Shown: positions 1 through 4,489, counted from the first letter of the stretch. The stretch is DNA of 4,489 nucleotides from a virus (IMGVR_UViG_2675903606_000011); one strand, 5' to 3'. The notes: generated by a model not told the origin, from the letters alone. Translations and numbers: made by a program.

Positions 1-182
1 GTGGCCCGCCAGGTATCTGCATCCAGCTCTTCACCGGTATACTCTGCATCCGTCAGATAAACCGCGATCGCAGGAAAATCCTCTTCGTCAAAAACAACGG
101 GGCGACCATCAAACAGCGTCGCCCCGTGTTCATGCTGCTCGAGTGCATCCAGCACTGCCGCACGGATATCAGTATGTTTCAT
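1..182 (-). CDS. U: Tail tube terminator protein, lambda gpU homolog (5' part only; runs off the window start)
   Basis: My reverse-complement translation from the ATG at 182-180 gives MKHTDIRAAVLDALEQHEHGATLFDGRPVVFDEEDFPAIAVYLTDAEYTGEELDADTWRA..., open to position 1. This closely matches the lambda gpU N-terminus as I recall it (MKHTELRAAVLDALEKHDTGATFFDGRPAVFDEADFPAVAVYLTGAEYTGEELDSDTWQA). The ATG overlaps the Z stop (ATGA, TGA at 181-179). Not in the ORF track because it is truncated at about 60 codons. Confidence 0.85.
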   Translation of the reverse strand, partial: MKHTDIRAAVLDALEQHEHGATLFDGRPVVFDEEDFPAIAVYLTDAEYTGEELDADTWRA

Positions 183-754
183 CGTTTTATCGCAATCCTC
201 AGCTGTTGTTTCAGCGCGTATGCCAGTTCTCCGGGCAGACGTTCACGCCGGATACGGTCAACGTTTTCATCAAACGCCTGTTTCAGTGGGGCCGCCATCG
301 GGATTTTCACCACCTGAATAGGAAGGCGATTACGCTTTTTCCTGCCCTTGTCGTCATTGCCCTTCTCATATCTGGCCTGGGGAAGACGTTGCATAACATG
401 CCAGCGCCCATTATTTAATCGCTGGATAAATGCCCGCTGATAACGATGCTGACCGGCTTTGAGTATGCTGTCCGGACGACGCCCCAGCATTCTGATCCCC
501 AGCTTAATCACAGGAAGATCACCGCGGTTAACGATAATTTTTGCATTCGGATTTCTGACCGTGGCCCGTTTCAGTCTGGACCGTTCCTTTACCAGTTTCC
601 GTCTCACCCTGGTTTCCCGGGCAACCTGTGATGAAGACTGATTAATCGCCGTTGTGGCCACGCGGTTAATCGTCATTGCTGAAGCCGCCGGAATGGCGTT
701 TTTACGAACCCGGCTCAGATTATCAATCGCCTGAGCAAGCCCTTTTATCGCCAT
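179..754 (-). CDS. Z: Tail completion protein, lambda gpZ homolog (191 aa)
   Basis: ORF track 179..754(-). N-terminus MAIKGLAQAIDNLSRV..., internal FIQRLNNGRWHVMQR and C-terminus VVKIPMAAP...RIRRERLPGELAYALKQQLRIAIKR match lambda gpZ from memory. Length matches lambda Z (192 aa). ATG at 754-752 is preceded by GGGTGA; position after FII is syntenic. Confidence 0.9.
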   Translation of the reverse strand: MAIKGLAQAIDNLSRVRKNAIPAASAMTINRVATTAINQSSSQVARETRVRRKLVKERSRLKRATVRNPNAKIIVNRGDLPVIKLGIRMLGRRPDSILKAGQHRYQRAFIQRLNNGRWHVMQRLPQARYEKGNDDKGRKKRNRLPIQVVKIPMAAPLKQAFDENVDRIRRERLPGELAYALKQQLRIAIKR

Positions 755-769
755 AATTTCACCCTGCGT

Positions 770-1123
770 TTATCGTCGCCGGTTAACTGCGGGGGGTTGC
801 CCACGGTTGAGCCAGAGATAACAGCTTCCCCCGTCATCCGGAGAAACACGATCCACCCAGAACATCTCGCCGTTAATGGTCAGCGTGTCACCACGCCGCA
901 CGGCACGCACCGTATCCGTCCGCACAAATAATGACGGGCTGCTTCCTTCAATACGGACCCCGCCACCGGCAAAACCCAGCGACTCCGGATCGTCAAAAAC
1001 CCCCTGAACTTCGCCGCCACGTTGTGCTCCGGAGGTGAACTGCGCACGGATCCCCATCACTTCAACGATCGTACTGTCCACCCCGGCAAGGGCAGCATCA
1101 AAGGCATTCTGAAAATCACGCAT
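770..1123 (-). CDS. FII: Head-tail joining protein, lambda gpFII homolog (117 aa)
   Basis: ORF track 770..1123(-). MRDFQNAFDAA..., GVFDDPE, VRIEGSSPSLFVRTD, RRGDTLTI and C-terminus FWVDRVSPDDGGSCYLWLNRGQPPAVNRRR are near-identical to lambda gpFII as I recall it. Same length as lambda FII. ATG at 1123-1121 overlaps the FI stop (TGA 1118-1116) by 8 nt. Confidence 0.9.
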   Translation of the reverse strand: MRDFQNAFDAALAGVDSTIVEVMGIRAQFTSGAQRGGEVQGVFDDPESLGFAGGGVRIEGSSPSLFVRTDTVRAVRRGDTLTINGEMFWVDRVSPDDGGSCYLWLNRGQPPAVNRRR

Positions 1124-1499
1124 ATTCAGCCGTTCCGTGCTGTATCATAGCCGTTGCCAGTGATGATGGCACCAGAACACGCATACCCCGTAACGCCAGC
1201 TCAACGGGACGACCTGTCTCCGGGCAATACCCCATTACTTGCAGGCACTTCCGTACCCGGACGGCTTTAACATCATCCGGAGCATCCGTGTTGTTCAACT
1301 GCTCACCATCGTCTGTGTGATTTTGATCAGCCCCGCTCTCATCAGAGTGCATAATGCCCTCCGGGGAAACAGCAAGCTCCTCTTCCCACTCAGACACACG
1401 TTGAGCAATATCCGCAGCACTCCCCGACATATCCGCCTCGCGCCCCAGCAGGCCAGCCAGTTGACGAAGACGATTCAGATTTTCTTCTTTTGTTGCCAT
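1116..1499 (-). CDS. FI: DNA-packaging/head assembly accessory protein, lambda gpFI homolog (127 aa from the revised start)
   Basis: ORF track gives 1116..1547, but its first 16 codons start at a GTG inside a GC hairpin. The in-frame ATG at 1499-1497 (MATKEENLNRLRQLAGLL...) is preceded by AGGAGG (1510-1505) with a 5-nt spacer. The product has a lambda FI-like layout: helical N-terminus, acidic low-complexity linker (SDESGADQNHTDDGEQLNNTDAPDD), compact C-terminal domain; lambda FI is 132 aa. Identity to lambda is moderate; the call relies on synteny plus pattern. Confidence 0.8.
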   Translation of the reverse strand: MATKEENLNRLRQLAGLLGREADMSGSAADIAQRVSEWEEELAVSPEGIMHSDESGADQNHTDDGEQLNNTDAPDDVKAVRVRKCLQVMGYCPETGRPVELALRGMRVLVPSSLATAMIQHGTAEYA

Positions 1500-1504
1500 C
1501 TCAG

Positions 1505-1510
1505 CCTCCT
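1505..1510 (-). promoter_or_regulatory. Shine-Dalgarno (AGGAGG) for FI
   Basis: Minus-strand sequence ACAGGAGGCTGAG-ATG read directly; the SD sits 5 nt upstream of the proposed FI ATG (1499-1497). Confidence 0.7.
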
Positions 1511-1513
1511 GTG

Positions 1514-1543
1514 AAAAAAGACACGGGGGCATTTCGCCCCCGC
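1514..1543 (-). terminator. Intrinsic-terminator-like hairpin plus U-tract between E and FI
   Basis: Minus-strand RNA reads ...UAA UCCGUGAG CGGGGGC GAAAU GCCCCCG UGUC UUUUUU CACAGGAGG...; 7-8 bp G/C stem (plus 1525-1530 pairs with 1536-1541), 5-nt loop, then a U6 tract (plus-strand A6 at 1514-1519). It lies 8 nt after the E stop codon and just before the FI SD. Probably read through under Q antitermination; may act as a partial terminator or 3' stabiliser. Confidence 0.45.
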
Positions 1544-1550
1544 TCACGGA

Positions 1551-2579
1551 TTATTTCACCTGTACCACCACAAACTCATCAGGATCCGGCAGCACCATCA
1601 GCGGAGCGGACTGCGTCATGGTGAATTCACAGGACGGATCGCCCACGGTCAGCCAGTGTTTCGGGTAACGGGAAGAAGCCACCACTCCTTCAGACAACGC
1701 CTGTGCATCCTTAATGGCTCCATAGCAACGAATCCCCTCTGCCGCCGTATTCCCCAGCACCAGCATGCCCTCCGGCAGATAACGTTTTTCGGTACCGTCC
1801 TCTGCCACATAAGACGTTTTCGCCACCACAATGGCCAGATCGCCGTAATACCCCTTGAAGGACACCACTGCGCCCAGATCTTTCACTGCCGTTTCGAGTT
1901 GTGAATTTGAGCCGCGACGGGTATCCAGTTTTTCGCGGAACAGCTTAAAGCCATTCAGCAGACGCCAGACCGTACCGTCCATAATGGCGATATTCACAAG
2001 GCCGCTGGCCTGATCGCAGTAGAGGTCAATATCATGCGTCGGATCAAACGTATCACGGTCCTGCTCAGACCATTTTTTACCGTCAGCCTGCTCAATGTTA
2101 TTTCCTTCAGAGCGCCCGAAATCCACCTCAACCGTGTCAAACTGATCCCCTTCCATGGTGTATTTGCCATACAGCACGGCATTCACCGCCTGCATTTCTT
2201 CCACCTGGACAATGGCGTGCTCTTCCTGTTTGAGGTTATCGGTAATGATACGCAGACGACGGTAGGCCGGGTCGTTCAGCTGAGCCGGATCTTCACCAGG
2301 AAGGCGCTCAACCGCCTGCTGGTAATTAAATTCGTGTTTGGGCTTGACGTAGCCCGGACGTAACACGCGGGTTTCACCACCACGATGGCGCAGCACTTTT
2401 CCTTCAACGATCGGGGAGACATAGGCCGCCACCGGCGTTTTTCCGGTAATTTTGTCCAGCATCACCTCTTCGGTGTGGAAATTCACCGTACGGCGGAAAA
2501 ACAGCTCCAGAAACAGCGCACGGAATTTCACTTTTTGTTCGGTATAACCGAGTAACTGGCGGGTCGTAAACAATCCCAT
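1551..2579 (-). CDS. E: Major capsid protein, lambda gpE homolog (342 aa)
   Basis: ORF track 1551..2579(-). Long runs identical or near-identical to lambda gpE as I recall it: YVSPIV, PGYVKPKHE, DPAYRRLRII, VQVEEMQAVNAVLYGKYTM, KLDTRRGSNSQLETAVKDLG, MVLGNT, YPKHWLTVGDPSCEFTMTQSAPLMVLPDPDEFV. Lambda E is 341 aa. ATG at 2579-2577 is preceded by AAAGGAA; TAA stop at 1553-1551. Confidence 0.95.
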   Translation of the reverse strand: MGLFTTRQLLGYTEQKVKFRALFLELFFRRTVNFHTEEVMLDKITGKTPVAAYVSPIVEGKVLRHRGGETRVLRPGYVKPKHEFNYQQAVERLPGEDPAQLNDPAYRRLRIITDNLKQEEHAIVQVEEMQAVNAVLYGKYTMEGDQFDTVEVDFGRSEGNNIEQADGKKWSEQDRDTFDPTHDIDLYCDQASGLVNIAIMDGTVWRLLNGFKLFREKLDTRRGSNSQLETAVKDLGAVVSFKGYYGDLAIVVAKTSYVAEDGTEKRYLPEGMLVLGNTAAEGIRCYGAIKDAQALSEGVVASSRYPKHWLTVGDPSCEFTMTQSAPLMVLPDPDEFVVVQVK

Positions 2580-2597
2580 AAATCAGTTCCTTTCATT

Positions 2598-2629
2598 AAA
2601 AAATCAGTCAGGCCACCGCGGTGGCCTGA
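2598..2629 (-). terminator. Perfect 22-nt palindrome (hairpin) followed by a U-tract, between D and E
   Basis: Plus 2608-2629 tcaggccaccgcggtggcctga is its own reverse complement. On the minus-strand RNA it forms an 8-9 bp GC-rich stem with a tight CGCG loop, followed by CUGA and UUUUUU (plus-strand A6 at 2598-2603). It starts about 8 nt after the D stop and ends about 18 nt before the E ATG. Confidence 0.4.
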
Positions 2630-2636
2630 TAACGTG

Positions 2637-2984
2637 TTACGGCAGCGCCGCGTGACTCAGGGCACTGCCGGTAAAGGCGTTGGCCTTTTTGTGTTCATCC
2701 ACACTTTCAGGCCAGCGGATTGCCTCCGTCGCAAAGGTCCCCGACTTGTAATACGTCAGCACCGCCTCTGTGCCTTCAAGCGGCAGTACCAGTATGCCAA
2801 CCGCACTACCGGCTTTCTGTCCATCCCAGACAACCAGTTTCCCGCTGGCTTCATCCGGCATCAGGGGCGTCAGTGCCGGTGTTGCCTGAGAAATCCCGCT
2901 GCTGCCTGTGGCGGTATGAGCCGGATCATTACCGGCAAAAATACGTACTTCTGCACGTTGTTCAGTGATGGTTTTCGTTACCAT
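2637..2984 (-). CDS. D: Head decoration protein, lambda gpD homolog (115 aa)
   Basis: ORF track 2637..2984(-). Motifs NDPAHTAT, TPLM, KLVVWDG, AVGIL, YYKSGTF match lambda gpD from memory (SDPAHTAT...MTPLM...KLVAWDG...AVGIL...FYKSGTF). Lambda D is 110 aa. ATG at 2984-2982 with GAGG upstream; TAA stop at 2639-2637. Confidence 0.9.
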   Translation of the reverse strand: MVTKTITEQRAEVRIFAGNDPAHTATGSSGISQATPALTPLMPDEASGKLVVWDGQKAGSAVGILVLPLEGTEAVLTYYKSGTFATEAIRWPESVDEHKKANAFTGSALSHAALP

Positions 2985-3020
2985 ATTGTAAAAACCTCAT
3001 ATTGATGGTCAGCACTGACT

Positions 3021-3623
3021 TCATGGCATGGCCATGAGCATTTTCACGTCCGCATCACCGTCTGCTGACGTCTGTGACACGCCACCCCGCACCGCTGCCG
3101 GTGAATGATTCGCCATGAAATGTTCAAACAGGGCGGTTGTGGATGCAGAGACCGGTTCTGCTTTATCCGGCGATGAGGACAGAATGTCGCGGGCAGCCTC
3201 CACCGTCATTCCGGGAAACGCCGCCAGTTTTTCAGCCTGCGCCTCAGCCCCTTTTGCCTCATCCAGAGCCATAATCTGATCACGGAGTGAGGGTCCGGCA
3301 TCCGCCAGTGGTGCAGCCGCAAGGATCGGGCGGGCTTTTTCCACCGTCATCTCCGGCATCGCCGCCAGCGTTGCCGCCAGTTGTTCACGACCGTTCGCTT
3401 CTTCACACGCCATAATGCGATCGGCTTCACTCTGCGTGGATGCCACCGGCTGCTGTGGTGCTGCCGCGGTCAGAATCGCCCGGGCCTGTTCAACGCTCAT
3501 GCCCTGTTGTCCTGCCAGCATCGTGGCAAGGTGTTCACGTCCTTTCGCTTCCTGACACGTCAGGATCCCCATCACTCGCTGGTTCTCCTGCGCGGCAGCT
3601 TCCGTTGCAGTTAATTGCGGCAT
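3021..3623 (-). CDS. Nu3: Nested in-frame scaffolding protein, lambda Nu3-like (C-terminal 200 aa of C, from internal ATG)
   Basis: Internal ATG at 3623-3621 (Met248 of C) is preceded by a perfect AGGAGG (3633-3628, 4-nt spacer), which itself encodes Gly-Gly of C. The product MPQLTATEAAAQENQRVMGILTCQEAKG... (200 aa) shares the C stop. In lambda, Nu3 is encoded in the same frame within the 3' part of C (about 200 codons), so size and position match. Independent expression is inferred from the SD, not demonstrated. Confidence 0.6.
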   Translation of the reverse strand: MPQLTATEAAAQENQRVMGILTCQEAKGREHLATMLAGQQGMSVEQARAILTAAAPQQPVASTQSEADRIMACEEANGREQLAATLAAMPEMTVEKARPILAAAPLADAGPSLRDQIMALDEAKGAEAQAEKLAAFPGMTVEAARDILSSSPDKAEPVSASTTALFEHFMANHSPAAVRGGVSQTSADGDADVKMLMAMP

Positions 3624-4364
3624 AGTGCCTCCTGTATCATGTGTGTTCAGCGCCGCATCAATCCGCTGCTGCATGTCCTGGCGAATCTCTTCCGGCAACG
3701 CTTCAAACTGATTGCCATCCACCTTGTGCGCCCCTGAGTAAATCAGCGTGATATCCACACCGGCCTGCGCCAGATGACCGGCATAGCTGACATGGCTCAT
3801 CATCACGCCAATGGAGCCGATACGGGATGTCTGGGTAACCAGCCGTCGGGAGCAGGCCGACGCCAGCAGCATGGCTGCAGAACAGGCCGTGTCATTGCAC
3901 AGTGCCCAGACCGGCTTCTGCTGACGGAGGCGGTAAATCATGTCAGCACAGTCAAACGCACCGGCGGCCTGCCCGCCCGGACTGTCAATGTCCAGCAGTA
4001 CACCCCGCACCTGGCTATCCGCCATTGCCTGCTGAAGACAGGCGACAATGCCGTCATAGCCTGTCATTCCGGAAAATGGCCGCATACCCCCCAGCCGGTG
4101 CACCAGCGTGCCTGTCACCGGCAGTACAGCAATACCGTTCACCACCTGGTAAACACGGGCCGGTCGTTTACCTCCGGCCATGTACTCGTCCGTTTCAGCC
4201 AGCATTCCGGGTGCATCAAGCTGTACCTGCTGTTGTGGTACCGAAAGACTTGCTGCCCCCATCTCGCGCCCGAGCGCGCAAAAGAAAACCCGCGCATAGG
4301 CGGGCTCCAGAAGCAGCGGTTCATTGAATGCTGCGGCAATAATGTGTGAAAGATTACGTCTCAC
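3021..4364 (-). CDS. C: Prohead protease / minor capsid protein, lambda gpC homolog (S49/ClpP-like), 447 aa, apparent GTG start
   Basis: ORF track 3021..4364(-). The N-terminal two thirds match lambda gpC from memory: AFNEPLLLEPAYARVFFCAL, VVNGIAVLPVTGTLV, MTGYDGI, GVLLDIDSPGG, AGAFDCADMI, KPVWAL, SRRLVTQTSRIGSIGVMM, ITLIYSGAHKVDGN. The first codon is GTG (plus 4362-4364 = cac); there is no in-frame ATG upstream of the conserved AFNEPL motif, and an in-frame TAG lies 12 codons upstream. GAGGAG sits 10 nt upstream. Stop TGA at 3023-3021. Confidence 0.9.
   Translation of the reverse strand: MRRNLSHIIAAAFNEPLLLEPAYARVFFCALGREMGAASLSVPQQQVQLDAPGMLAETDEYMAGGKRPARVYQVVNGIAVLPVTGTLVHRLGGMRPFSGMTGYDGIVACLQQAMADSQVRGVLLDIDSPGGQAAGAFDCADMIYRLRQQKPVWALCNDTACSAAMLLASACSRRLVTQTSRIGSIGVMMSHVSYAGHLAQAGVDITLIYSGAHKVDGNQFEALPEEIRQDMQQRIDAALNTHDTGGTMPQLTATEAAAQENQRVMGILTCQEAKGREHLATMLAGQQGMSVEQARAILTAAAPQQPVASTQSEADRIMACEEANGREQLAATLAAMPEMTVEKARPILAAAPLADAGPSLRDQIMALDEAKGAEAQAEKLAAFPGMTVEAARDILSSSPDKAEPVSASTTALFEHFMANHSPAAVRGGVSQTSADGDADVKMLMAMP
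3168..3578 (-). repeat. Three tandem copies of a roughly 40-50 aa motif in the C/Nu3 C-terminal domain (coding repeat)
   Basis: C residues 263-303 RVMGILTCQEAKGREHLATMLAGQQGMSVEQARAILTAAAP; 316-352 RIMACEEANGREQLAATLAAMPEMTVEKARPILAAAP; 363-399 QIMALDEAKGAEAQAEKLAAFPGMTVEAARDILSSSP. Consensus IMxxxEAxGxExxAxxLAxxPxMTVExARxILxxxP, period about 47-53 aa. Seen directly in the translation. Confidence 0.75.
3628..3633 (-). promoter_or_regulatory. Internal Shine-Dalgarno (AGGAGG) for the nested Nu3-like start
   Basis: Minus-strand ...ACA GGA GGC ACT ATG CCG... read directly from the sequence. This is the strongest SD in the window and lies inside the C reading frame. Confidence 0.6.
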
Positions 4365-4489
4365 GTGGTGTTGTCTCCTCTTCCGGCCTGCGACTCTCCG
4401 CTATCTGCTGCTGATACGCCTGCGCTATCCACACCGGACGTGAGAGTCCGGCTTTTTCCCGCTCTGCAGATTCCCTGACCTGCTGGCGG
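4354..4489 (-). CDS. B: Portal protein, lambda gpB homolog, C-terminal 44 codons only (5' end outside the window)
   Basis: My reverse-complement translation of 4489..4354 in the one protein-like frame gives ...RQQVRESAEREKAGLSRPVWIAQAYQQQIAESRRPEEETTPRET with TAA at 4356-4354. It overlaps the C start by 11 nt; allowing for the C N-terminus being about 3 codons shorter than lambda's, this reproduces the 20-nt B/C overlap I recall for lambda. The call is by synteny and frame quality; I cannot verify the portal C-terminal sequence from memory. Confidence 0.6.
   Translation of the reverse strand, partial: RQQVRESAEREKAGLSRPVWIAQAYQQQIAESRRPEEETTPRET

What the first reader, a model, noticed from the sequence alone, without database searches (positions are those of the whole stretch)
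1..4489. Complete lambda-type head module in canonical order: a lambdoid (pro)phage structural region
Every sizeable minus-strand ORF is a recognisable homolog of a lambda head gene, in the exact lambda order (B, C/Nu3, D, E, FI, FII, Z, U) and with lambda-like junctions. The proteins are diverged from lambda, roughly 50-80% identical by eye in conserved blocks, so this is a relative of lambda rather than lambda itself. If the window comes from a bacterial chromosome, it marks a prophage whose late operon is on the minus strand, with terminase upstream (higher coordinates) and tail genes downstream (lower coordinates).
Basis: partly seen in the sequence, partly recalled or inferred. Interest (0 to 1): 0.4.

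Follow-up and report, generated by a model that had tools for sequence, protein, structure and literature searches.

The report
Phage 21-like lambdoid prophage head genes
This is an ordinary, well-known stretch of head and head-tail-joining genes from a lambda-family (phage 21-type) prophage of E. coli; its only unusual feature is a rare in-frame 54-codon deletion in the head protease gene.

Summary
All real genes are on the minus strand, in lambda order: end of B (portal), C with a nested scaffold gene (Nu3), D, E, FI, FII, Z and the start of U. Every product hits its lambda-named Pfam and PHROG family.

The module is not "complete". Nu1, A, W and 92% of B are absent, and Z and U are tail genes. 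It is phage 21-type rather than lambda-type:
- 91% DNA identity to phage 21.
- 97-98% to isolated PhiR12 phages and to prophages found in over 1,500 complete E. coli genomes.
- Protein identity to lambda is 32-80%.

The window is an entire 4,489-bp contig of a draft bacterial assembly (GCA_001284505.1), so its own flanks cannot be read.

One feature is uncommon. Gene C has an in-frame 162-bp deletion between short direct repeats.
- It removes the last third of the S49 protease fold.
- It keeps the catalytic Ser and Lys, and the ribosome-binding site and start codon of the nested scaffold gene.
- The same allele recurs in one other draft assembly. I found it in none of 5,426 complete E. coli genomes and in none of the four phage or prophage relatives whose C gene I examined.

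Verdict: already known, low interest.

The parts
4354..4488 (-). 3' end of the portal gene B (last 44 codons plus stop). It overlaps the start of C by 11 nt.
   Evidence: Read from the sequence. 100% identical to the C-terminus of the 530-aa portal of the O55:H7 prophage, 95.5% to phage 21 and 42% to lambda B. PHROG portal family phrog_537, 2.6e-9. No Pfam hit for this short fragment.
3021..4364 (-). Gene C: head maturation protease (S49 family) fused to a C-terminal scaffold domain. 447 aa with a GTG start. Carries an in-frame 54-codon deletion relative to all relatives examined.
   Evidence: Pfam Peptidase_S49 5e-22, but only profile positions 3-95 of 154 are matched. phrog_53 head maturation protease, 2e-197. 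99.6% identical to the 501-aa O55:H7 protein, 94% to phage 21 gp5 and 47% to lambda C.
3650..3657 (-). Deletion junction: the single retained copy of the 8-bp direct repeat TGCGGCGC. Relatives carry 162 more bases here.
   Evidence: Alignments show one 162-column gap at window position 3649/3650. The two breakpoints in the relative lie in an imperfect direct repeat of about 20 nt.
3021..3623 (-). Nested in-frame scaffold gene (lambda Nu3, phage 21 gene 6), 200 aa. Its ATG at 3623..3621 follows AGGAGG at 3633..3628.
   Evidence: Same length and start as gene 6 or 'scaffolding protein' annotated in both phage 21 records. 91% identical to phage 21 gp6. PHROG head scaffolding families.
3174..3590 (-). 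Three diverged tandem copies of a 40-45-aa motif in the scaffold domain (Tri1 3590..3456, Tri2 3431..3312, Tri3 3293..3174). Lambda has one copy.
   Evidence: Pairwise local alignment scores of 68-122 against shuffle maxima of 37-44. Annotated as Tri1, Tri and Tri3 boxes in phage 21 record M81255. Not detected at DNA level by TRF.
2637..2984 (-). Gene D / shp: head decoration protein, 115 aa.
   Evidence: Pfam HDPD 4e-22. 93% identical to phage 21 SHP and 51% to lambda D. This matches the published 49% identity between SHP and gpD (PMC7602432).
2608..2629 (-). GC-rich hairpin followed by a U run in the D-E spacer.
   Evidence: Terminator-like site. Fold energy -18.4 kcal/mol, z = -3.0. Lambda has a hairpin with a U run of unrelated sequence in the same spacer.
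1551..2579 (-). Gene E: major capsid protein, 342 aa.
   Evidence: Pfam Phage_cap_E 2e-65 over the full profile. 100% identical to the O55:H7 prophage protein, 94% to phage 21 gp7 and 61% to lambda E.
1523..1543 (-). GC-rich hairpin followed by a U run in the E-FI spacer.
   Evidence: Terminator-like site. Fold energy -22.9 kcal/mol, z = -3.1. Lambda has a hairpin of different sequence at the same place.
1116..1499 (-). Gene FI: DNA-packaging chaperone, 127 aa. The ATG follows AGGAGG.
   Evidence: Pfam Packaging_FI 4e-14. phrog_92, 9e-47. 100% identical to the O55:H7 prophage protein, but only 47% to phage 21 and 32% to lambda.
770..1123 (-). Gene FII: head-tail joining (head closure) protein, 117 aa. 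Overlaps FI by 8 nt.
   Evidence: Pfam Phage_attach 3e-18. phrog_82, 5e-51. 92% identical to phage 21 and 70% to lambda.
179..754 (-). Gene Z: tail completion protein, 191 aa. Has a 14-aa insert relative to lambda, phage 21 and PhiR12_2_star.
   Evidence: Pfam Minor_tail_Z 1e-48. 98% identical to the O55:H7 prophage protein, 68% to phage 21 and 69% to lambda.
1..182 (-). 5' part of gene U (tail terminator): first 60 codons. Start overlaps the Z stop as ATGA.
   Evidence: Pfam Phage_tail_U 4e-24, profile positions 1-61 of 130. 100% identical to the O55:H7 prophage protein and 80% to lambda U.

Best explanation
The window is the middle of the late (virion morphogenesis) operon of a phage 21-type lambdoid prophage in an E. 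coli-type draft genome. It is transcribed right to left.

By homology with lambda, the gene products would act as follows (inferred, not tested here):
- The portal (B), the C protease and the scaffold made from the internal start in C nucleate the prohead.
- E builds the shell.
- C then degrades the scaffold.
- FI helps the terminase dock the filled-DNA complex on the prohead.
- D/SHP trimers stabilise the expanded shell.
- FII closes the portal and provides the tail-docking site.
- Z and U finish the tail.

This particular copy carries a 162-bp in-frame deletion in C, made by recombination or slippage between short direct repeats. It removes the C-terminal third of the S49 fold and leaves the catalytic Ser162 and Lys214 and the nested scaffold gene intact. 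I infer that the protease is probably crippled. If so, this prophage copy probably cannot mature heads on its own unless a co-resident lambdoid prophage supplies C. I put that at about 55% likely. It is not shown.
For: - Gene identities: Pfam and PHROGs.
- Order and junctions.
- Near-identity to isolated temperate phages and to chromosomal prophages that carry terminase upstream and tail genes downstream.
- Bacterial draft-assembly origin.
- Phage 21-type features: a 603-nt nested gene 6 with three Tri boxes, an FI/FII overlap, and 91-94% protein identity in C, scaffold, D, E and FII.
- Deletion: one 162-nt gap against relatives. The Pfam S49 match stops at profile position 95 of 154. The full-length relative aligns to B. 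subtilis SppA through the deleted segment.
- The same allele, with 4 SNPs, is in a second assembly, so it is not a one-off error.
- In lambda, every gene represented here is essential (PMC10695390, Table 1). C is the prohead protease (Medina et al. 2010, as cited in PMC3224144).
Against: - The window's own flanks do not exist, because the contig ends inside B and inside U. Prophage status therefore rests on relatives.
- No experiment or structure model shows that the deleted C is inactive. The deletion is in frame, both catalytic residues remain, and the allele has persisted in at least two isolates.
- Both records that carry it are short-read draft contigs.
Confidence: 0.95

Rival explanations
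1. The prophage is fully functional, and the 447-aa C protein is an active protease. On this view the last third of the S49 fold is dispensable for prohead maturation.
For: - The deletion is in frame.
- Ser162 and Lys214 are kept, and they align with the catalytic positions of SppA.
- The ribosome-binding site and ATG of the scaffold gene are untouched.
- All other genes are intact.
- The allele is present in two assemblies that differ by 4 SNPs.
Against: - The deleted segment is conserved from lambda to SppA, including the GLADEL motif.
- It covers Pfam profile positions 96-154.
- I found no copy of the junction in 5,426 complete E. coli genomes.
- Each of the four phage and prophage relatives whose C gene I examined (lambda, phage 21, PhiR12_2_star and the O55:H7 prophage) has it full length.
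Confidence: 0.3
2. The 162-bp deletion is an assembly or sequencing artefact, and the real genome has a full-length C gene.
For: - Both contigs that carry it are short contigs (4.2-4.5 kb) of short-read draft assemblies.
- E. coli genomes commonly hold several near-identical copies of this module (median 2, up to 6 places per genome). That invites mis-assembly.
Against: - Two separate assemblies give the same junction while differing at 4 other sites.
- The perfect repeat at the junction is only 8 bp, far below assembler k-mer sizes.
- The gap is a clean multiple of three, between direct repeats, as expected of a real slippage or recombination deletion.
Confidence: 0.07
3. The segment belongs not to a complete prophage but to a phage-derived remnant or a satellite that keeps only capsid genes, such as a cryptic prophage fragment or a capsid-forming island.
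For: No flanks are available for this contig. The C deletion hints at decay.
Against: - It is 98% identical over its whole length to modules inside full-length prophages and plaque-forming phages.
- All nine reading frames, the nested scaffold frame included, are open with no frameshift or premature stop.
- The contig ends fall inside B and U, not at gene borders. That fits assembly breaks in sequence repeated elsewhere in the genome.
Confidence: 0.1

Closest known systems
Phage 21 head operon (M81255; complete genome OL657228, genus Jouyvirus): genes 4, 5, 6, shp, 7, ORF1/FI, 8/FII
   Same: - Same gene order.
- The nested gene 6 starts at the same ATG, with the same 603-nt length and three Tri boxes.
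- FI/FII overlap in the same way.
- Protein identities: C 94%, scaffold 91%, SHP 93%, major capsid 94%, FII 92%.
   Different: - FI is only 47% identical.
- Z is 68% and U 85% identical. The megablast match to phage 21 stops at window position 498, inside Z; a more sensitive blastn still aligns 4-322 at about 78%. The right-hand (tail-proximal) part therefore comes from another lambdoid lineage.
- C here lacks 54 codons that phage 21 has.
E. coli chromosomal lambdoid prophages (e.g. O55:H7 USDA5905, NZ_CP039837) and induced phages PhiR12_1 to PhiR12_5 and PhiR12_2_star
   Same: - 97-98.4% DNA identity over the whole window.
- Against the O55:H7 prophage there are 65 substitutions, clustered in Z and D.
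- Identical E and FI proteins, and identical B and U fragments.
   Different: - These relatives have the full 1,506-nt C gene. The window has 1,344 nt.
- PhiR12_2_star lacks the 14-aa insert in Z.
Bacteriophage lambda genes B-C/Nu3-D-E-FI-FII-Z-U (NC_001416)
   Same: - Same order, same strand logic and same Pfam families.
- Nested scaffold gene inside C.
- ATGA overlap of Z and U.
- Hairpins after D and after E.
- An AGGAGG-N4-ATG inside C at the position of the phage 21 gene 6 start.
   Different: - Only 32-80% protein identity, and 68-78% DNA identity in patches.
- One Tri motif instead of three.
- A long Ser/Thr/Ala-rich linker in C that is absent here.
- FI and FII do not overlap.
- The GenBank nu3 start is 210 nt further upstream.
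Signal peptide peptidase A, SppA (MEROPS S49; PDB 3RST, 4KWB, 3BF0)
   Same: The protease domain of the full-length relative aligns over about 213 residues, E = 3e-16. The nucleophile Ser and the Lys position are conserved.
   Different: SppA is a membrane-anchored cellular enzyme with no scaffold domain. The window's protein lacks the last 54 or so residues of the shared fold.

Membership tests
Lambda-type head / head-tail joining gene module | Products belong to the families founded on lambda C, D, E, FI, FII, Z and U | tested here: met
   All seven exceed the Pfam gathering scores. PHROG functional categories agree, and the B fragment hits a portal family.
Lambda-type head / head-tail joining gene module | Gene order B-C(Nu3)-D-E-FI-FII-Z-U on one strand, tightly packed | tested here: met
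   Coordinates compared with the lambda annotation.
Lambda-type head / head-tail joining gene module | Scaffold protein made from an in-frame internal start within the protease gene | tested here: inconclusive
   An AGGAGG-N4-ATG with a 200-codon in-frame ORF is present at the site annotated as gene 6 in phage 21. Use of this start is not shown experimentally here.
Lambda-type head / head-tail joining gene module | Terminase (Nu1, A) and W upstream; V, G, T, H downstream | not testable with these tools
   The window is the whole contig. The feature is met in relatives that are 91-98% identical.
Phage 21-type (Jouyvirus-like) head genes | Three Tri boxes in gene 6, shp-type decoration gene, and at least 90% identity to phage 21 gp5, gp6, SHP and gp7 | tested here: met
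Phage 21-type (Jouyvirus-like) head genes | The whole segment collinear with phage 21 at high identity | tested here: not met
   FI is 47% and Z 68% identical. The megablast match to phage 21 ends at window position 498. The segment is a mosaic, so species- or genus-level assignment cannot be made from it.
Peptidase family S49 (ClpP/crotonase-like Ser-Lys proteases) | Catalytic Ser and Lys conserved | tested here: met
   Ser162 and Lys214 are invariant between the window, the O55:H7 prophage and lambda. Ser162 aligns with the SppA nucleophile. Lys214 aligns with the position that is Ala in the deposited SppA chains. That these chains are the K199A mutant is my recollection, not a tool result.
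Peptidase family S49 (ClpP/crotonase-like Ser-Lys proteases) | Complete S49 domain | tested here: not met
   The Pfam match covers profile positions 3-95 of 154 only. The 54 residues that relatives have here, including the GLADEL motif, are missing.

The most novel reading that the evidence does not exclude
The 447-aa C allele may be a naturally occurring, still functional 'mini' prohead protease. It lacks the segment that lies between the nu3 start annotated in lambda's GenBank record and the gene 6 start annotated in phage 21. If so, the C-terminal third of the S49 fold would be dispensable for head maturation. It would also show that the scaffold is made from the downstream AGGAGG-ATG start. 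A second possibility is that a protease-dead but scaffold-proficient copy is kept because it interferes with, or is complemented by, co-resident lambdoid prophages.
Probability: 0.12. Interest if true: 0.3.

Novelty: already known. Interest (0 to 1): 0.08.

Why it matters
It matters little beyond annotation. The contig can be labelled as the head and head-tail-joining part of a phage 21-like lambdoid prophage, a module present in more than a quarter of complete E. coli genomes.

The C deletion is a small, testable natural variant. It offers a ready-made probe of which part of the lambda-family protease/scaffold polyprotein is needed. It also flags this prophage copy as possibly defective.

Tried and rejected
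- **Tandem repeats.** TRF found no DNA-level tandem repeat for the Tri boxes. They are visible only as protein repeats.
- **RNA families.** An Rfam scan at gathering threshold found nothing.
- **Promoters.** Promoter-like sites are not enriched: 2 found against 2.5 expected. This fits an operon interior.
- **Plus-strand ORFs.** The four largest (191, 141, 123 and 109 aa) have no Pfam match at E <= 0.1. They lie wholly antisense to strongly supported genes, so I treat them as spurious.
- **FI start.** The 143-aa GTG-start version of FI in the ORF list was rejected in favour of the 127-aa ATG start, which follows an AGGAGG and is used in the annotations of relatives.
- **Search for the deletion junction.** An exact 39-nt search found 0 hits in 185,579 GTDB representative genomes. 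BLAST searches of complete E. coli genomes with 161-nt and 48-nt junction queries returned no contiguous full-identity match. The best hits were two pieces spanning an extra 162 nt, and the only single-piece hits were 89%-identical alignments within the undeleted gene.
- **Not run.** I did not run the very large protein homology searches or a structure prediction. The identity of every gene was already unambiguous, and the side question about the deletion did not justify the cost.
- **Technical limitation.** Loci L002, L006 and L007 were not exported to the Python sandbox. Those comparisons were made with the alignment tools instead.
Full report
**1. What is in the window**

The mechanical ORF list and the reverse-strand sequence show a tight array of minus-strand reading frames:
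- A frame open from the contig end down to a TAA at 4356..4354, which is the last 44 codons of a portal gene.
- A 447-codon GTG-start gene at 4364..3021.
- 115 codons at 2984..2637.
- 342 codons at 2579..1551.
- 127 codons from an ATG behind AGGAGG at 1499..1116.
- 117 codons at 1123..770.
- 191 codons at 754..179.
- A frame starting at 182 that runs off the contig end.

Pfam assigns these to Peptidase_S49, HDPD (lambda D), Phage_cap_E, Packaging_FI, Phage_attach (FII), Minor_tail_Z and Phage_tail_U. E-values run from 4e-14 to 2e-65, all above the curated cut-offs. PHROGs give the same functions and place the 44-aa fragment in a portal family.

Nothing else is there:
- Rfam found nothing.
- Promoter-like sites are at the background level.
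- The largest plus-strand ORFs have no family match and lie antisense to the real genes.

**2. What it is related to**

Megablast against phage records gives these matches:
- 97-98% identity over 99% of the window to the PhiR12 phages.
- 91% identity over 84% of the window to phage 21 and several lambda-like coliphages.

Against 5,426 complete E. coli genomes, 2,068 have a match and 1,544 hold at least 80% of the window. Most hold more than one copy (median 2). The best match is 98.4%.

Lambda itself aligns only in patches of 68-78% DNA identity.

Protein identities:

| Protein | vs lambda | vs phage 21 |
|---|---|---|
| B C-terminus | 42% | 95.5% |
| C | 47% | 94% |
| Nested scaffold | 45% (95 aligned residues only) | 91% |
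| D / SHP | 51% | 93% |
| E | 61% | 94% |
| FI | 32% | 47% |
| FII | 70% | 92% |
| Z | 69% | 68% |
| U | 80% | 85% |

The D value matches the published 49% identity between SHP of phage 21 and gpD of lambda (PMC7602432).

The module is therefore phage 21-type from B through E and in FII. Its FI and Z-U parts come from another lambdoid lineage, the one seen in the O55:H7 prophage and the PhiR12 phages. This is ordinary lambdoid mosaicism. Against the O55:H7 prophage, the 65 substitutions cluster in Z (159-364, 590-614) and in D with its downstream spacer (2598-2888).

**3. Where the window comes from, and its flanks**

An exact-protein look-up with the 447-aa product shows that the window is the complete contig CYAZ01000124.1 (4,489 bp) of assembly GCA_001284505.1.

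In close relatives the arrangement is as predicted. Nu1, A, W and B lie upstream, and U, V, G, T, H, M, L and onward lie downstream. This holds in the O55:H7 chromosome, phage 21 and PhiR12_2_star. In the chromosome, lysis genes lie beyond the terminase and host-specificity (J) and tail-fibre genes beyond the tail genes.

The contig ends inside B and inside U. That fits assembly breaks where the sequence becomes repeated among co-resident prophages. This is an inference.

**4. How it works**

This rests on established lambda biology, not on tests here. In lambda:
- The portal B, the protease C and the scaffold Nu3 form the initiator on which E polymerises.
- FI assists packaging.
- D stabilises the expanded head.
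- FII makes the tail-binding site, and Z and U complete the tail (PMC3224144).
- All of these genes are essential (PMC10695390, Table 1).

The nested scaffold gene is recognisable here. An AGGAGG, four bases, then an ATG at 3623 opens a 200-codon in-frame ORF. This is exactly the gene 6 or 'scaffolding protein' of both phage 21 records.

Its product contains three diverged copies of a 40-45-aa motif of which lambda has one. These are the Tri boxes already annotated in the 1990s phage 21 record.

**5. The one unusual feature**

Gene C is 162 nt (54 codons) shorter than in the four relatives whose C gene I examined.
- The gap is single and clean. In the relatives it lies between two copies of TGCGGCGC, embedded in an imperfect direct repeat of about 20 nt. 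That is the signature of a slippage or short-homology deletion.
- It removes residues equivalent to ARRMFAEKV...GLADELINASDAISVMA.
- This is the C-terminal third of the S49 fold. The Pfam match stops at profile position 95 of 154. The full-length relative aligns with B. subtilis SppA through this segment.
- Ser162 (lambda Ser166 by the alignment) and Lys214 are retained.
- The deletion ends about 20 nt before the scaffold gene's ribosome-binding site, so the scaffold should still be made.

How widespread is the allele?
- A second assembly (GCA_021449985.1, a 4,206-bp contig) encodes the identical 447-aa protein. Its DNA differs from the window at only 4 of 4,206 positions. So the allele is real, or at least reproducible.
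- No complete E. coli genome showed the junction. The best hits were always two pieces spanning an extra 162 nt.
- No GTDB representative genome has the junction.
- Phage 21 and PhiR12_2_star both have the 1,506-nt gene.

I infer that the protease is probably impaired and this prophage copy probably defective for head maturation unless complemented. I put that at about 55%. This is not demonstrated.

**6. Comparison with what is known, and novelty**

Everything apart from the deletion is already described: the lambda head pathway, the phage 21 head operon with its Tri boxes and shp gene, and the abundance of such prophages in E. coli. The finding is a correct recognition of a textbook module. 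It rates as 'already known', with low interest.

- The module is not complete.
- Z and U are tail genes.
- Identity to lambda goes down to 32%.
- The junctions are partly phage 21-like rather than lambda-like.

**7. Scores**

Interest is 0.08. The most novel reading still open is that the shortened C protein works, or that it has been kept for a reason. I give that a probability of about 0.12, and modest interest if true (0.3).

Noticed in passing
window 3650-3657 (junction), gene C 3021-4364: In-frame 162-bp deletion in the S49 protease part of gene C, between 8-bp perfect (about 20-bp imperfect) direct repeats. It is shared with one other draft assembly (4 SNPs apart). I did not find it in 5,426 complete E. 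coli genomes, nor in the four phage or prophage relatives whose C gene I examined.
   Followed up: yes
window 3174-3590, minus strand: Three diverged tandem copies of a 40-45-aa motif in the scaffold domain, where lambda has one. They are invisible to TRF at DNA level. They are already annotated as Tri boxes, 'function unknown', in phage 21 record M81255.
   Followed up: yes
window 2608-2629 and 1523-1543, minus strand; L004 4098-4119 and 5164-5181 (lambda): Terminator-like GC hairpins with U runs sit directly after D and directly after E. Lambda has hairpins at the same two spacers but with unrelated sequence. So the position is conserved and the sequence is not. They may act as mRNA-stabilising or partial-termination elements flanking the two most abundant head proteins.
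   Followed up: partly
L004 3331-3345 (lambda genome 5330-5344): Lambda's own C gene has AGGAGG-N4-ATG exactly where phage 21 gene 6 and the window's nested scaffold gene start. The RefSeq lambda record instead annotates nu3 as starting 210 nt upstream, at 5132, where the 21-type genes have ATT (Ile). The deleted segment in the window is roughly the stretch between these two candidate starts.
   Followed up: partly
window 1-497, 1116-1499 and 2598-2888: Mosaic boundaries. The megablast match to phage 21 stops at 498, inside Z. FI is only 47% identical to phage 21 FI but 100% identical to that of the O55:H7 prophage. Substitutions against the O55:H7 prophage cluster in D and in the 3' half of Z.
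   Followed up: partly
window about 323-364 (Z codons about 131-144): Z carries a 14-aa charged insert (roughly YEKGNDDKGRKKRN) that is absent from lambda, phage 21 and PhiR12_2_star Z. It is present in the O55:H7 prophage.
   Followed up: partly
L009 3001-3245 (Aeromonas phage AP1, MT713136, 250152-250396); window 2336-2580: A 245-nt stretch 96% identical to the 5' end of the E. coli lambdoid major capsid gene sits in an unannotated spacer of a 254-kb T4-like Aeromonas phage genome. It is probably contamination or a chimeric assembly in that record.
   Followed up: partly
whole window; L007: The window is an entire short contig. The second contig with the same allele ends at nearly the same places (window 160 and 4365). 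This suggests that sequence beyond both ends is repeated in those genomes, for example through other lambdoid prophages that share the B and U-V sequence.
   Followed up: no
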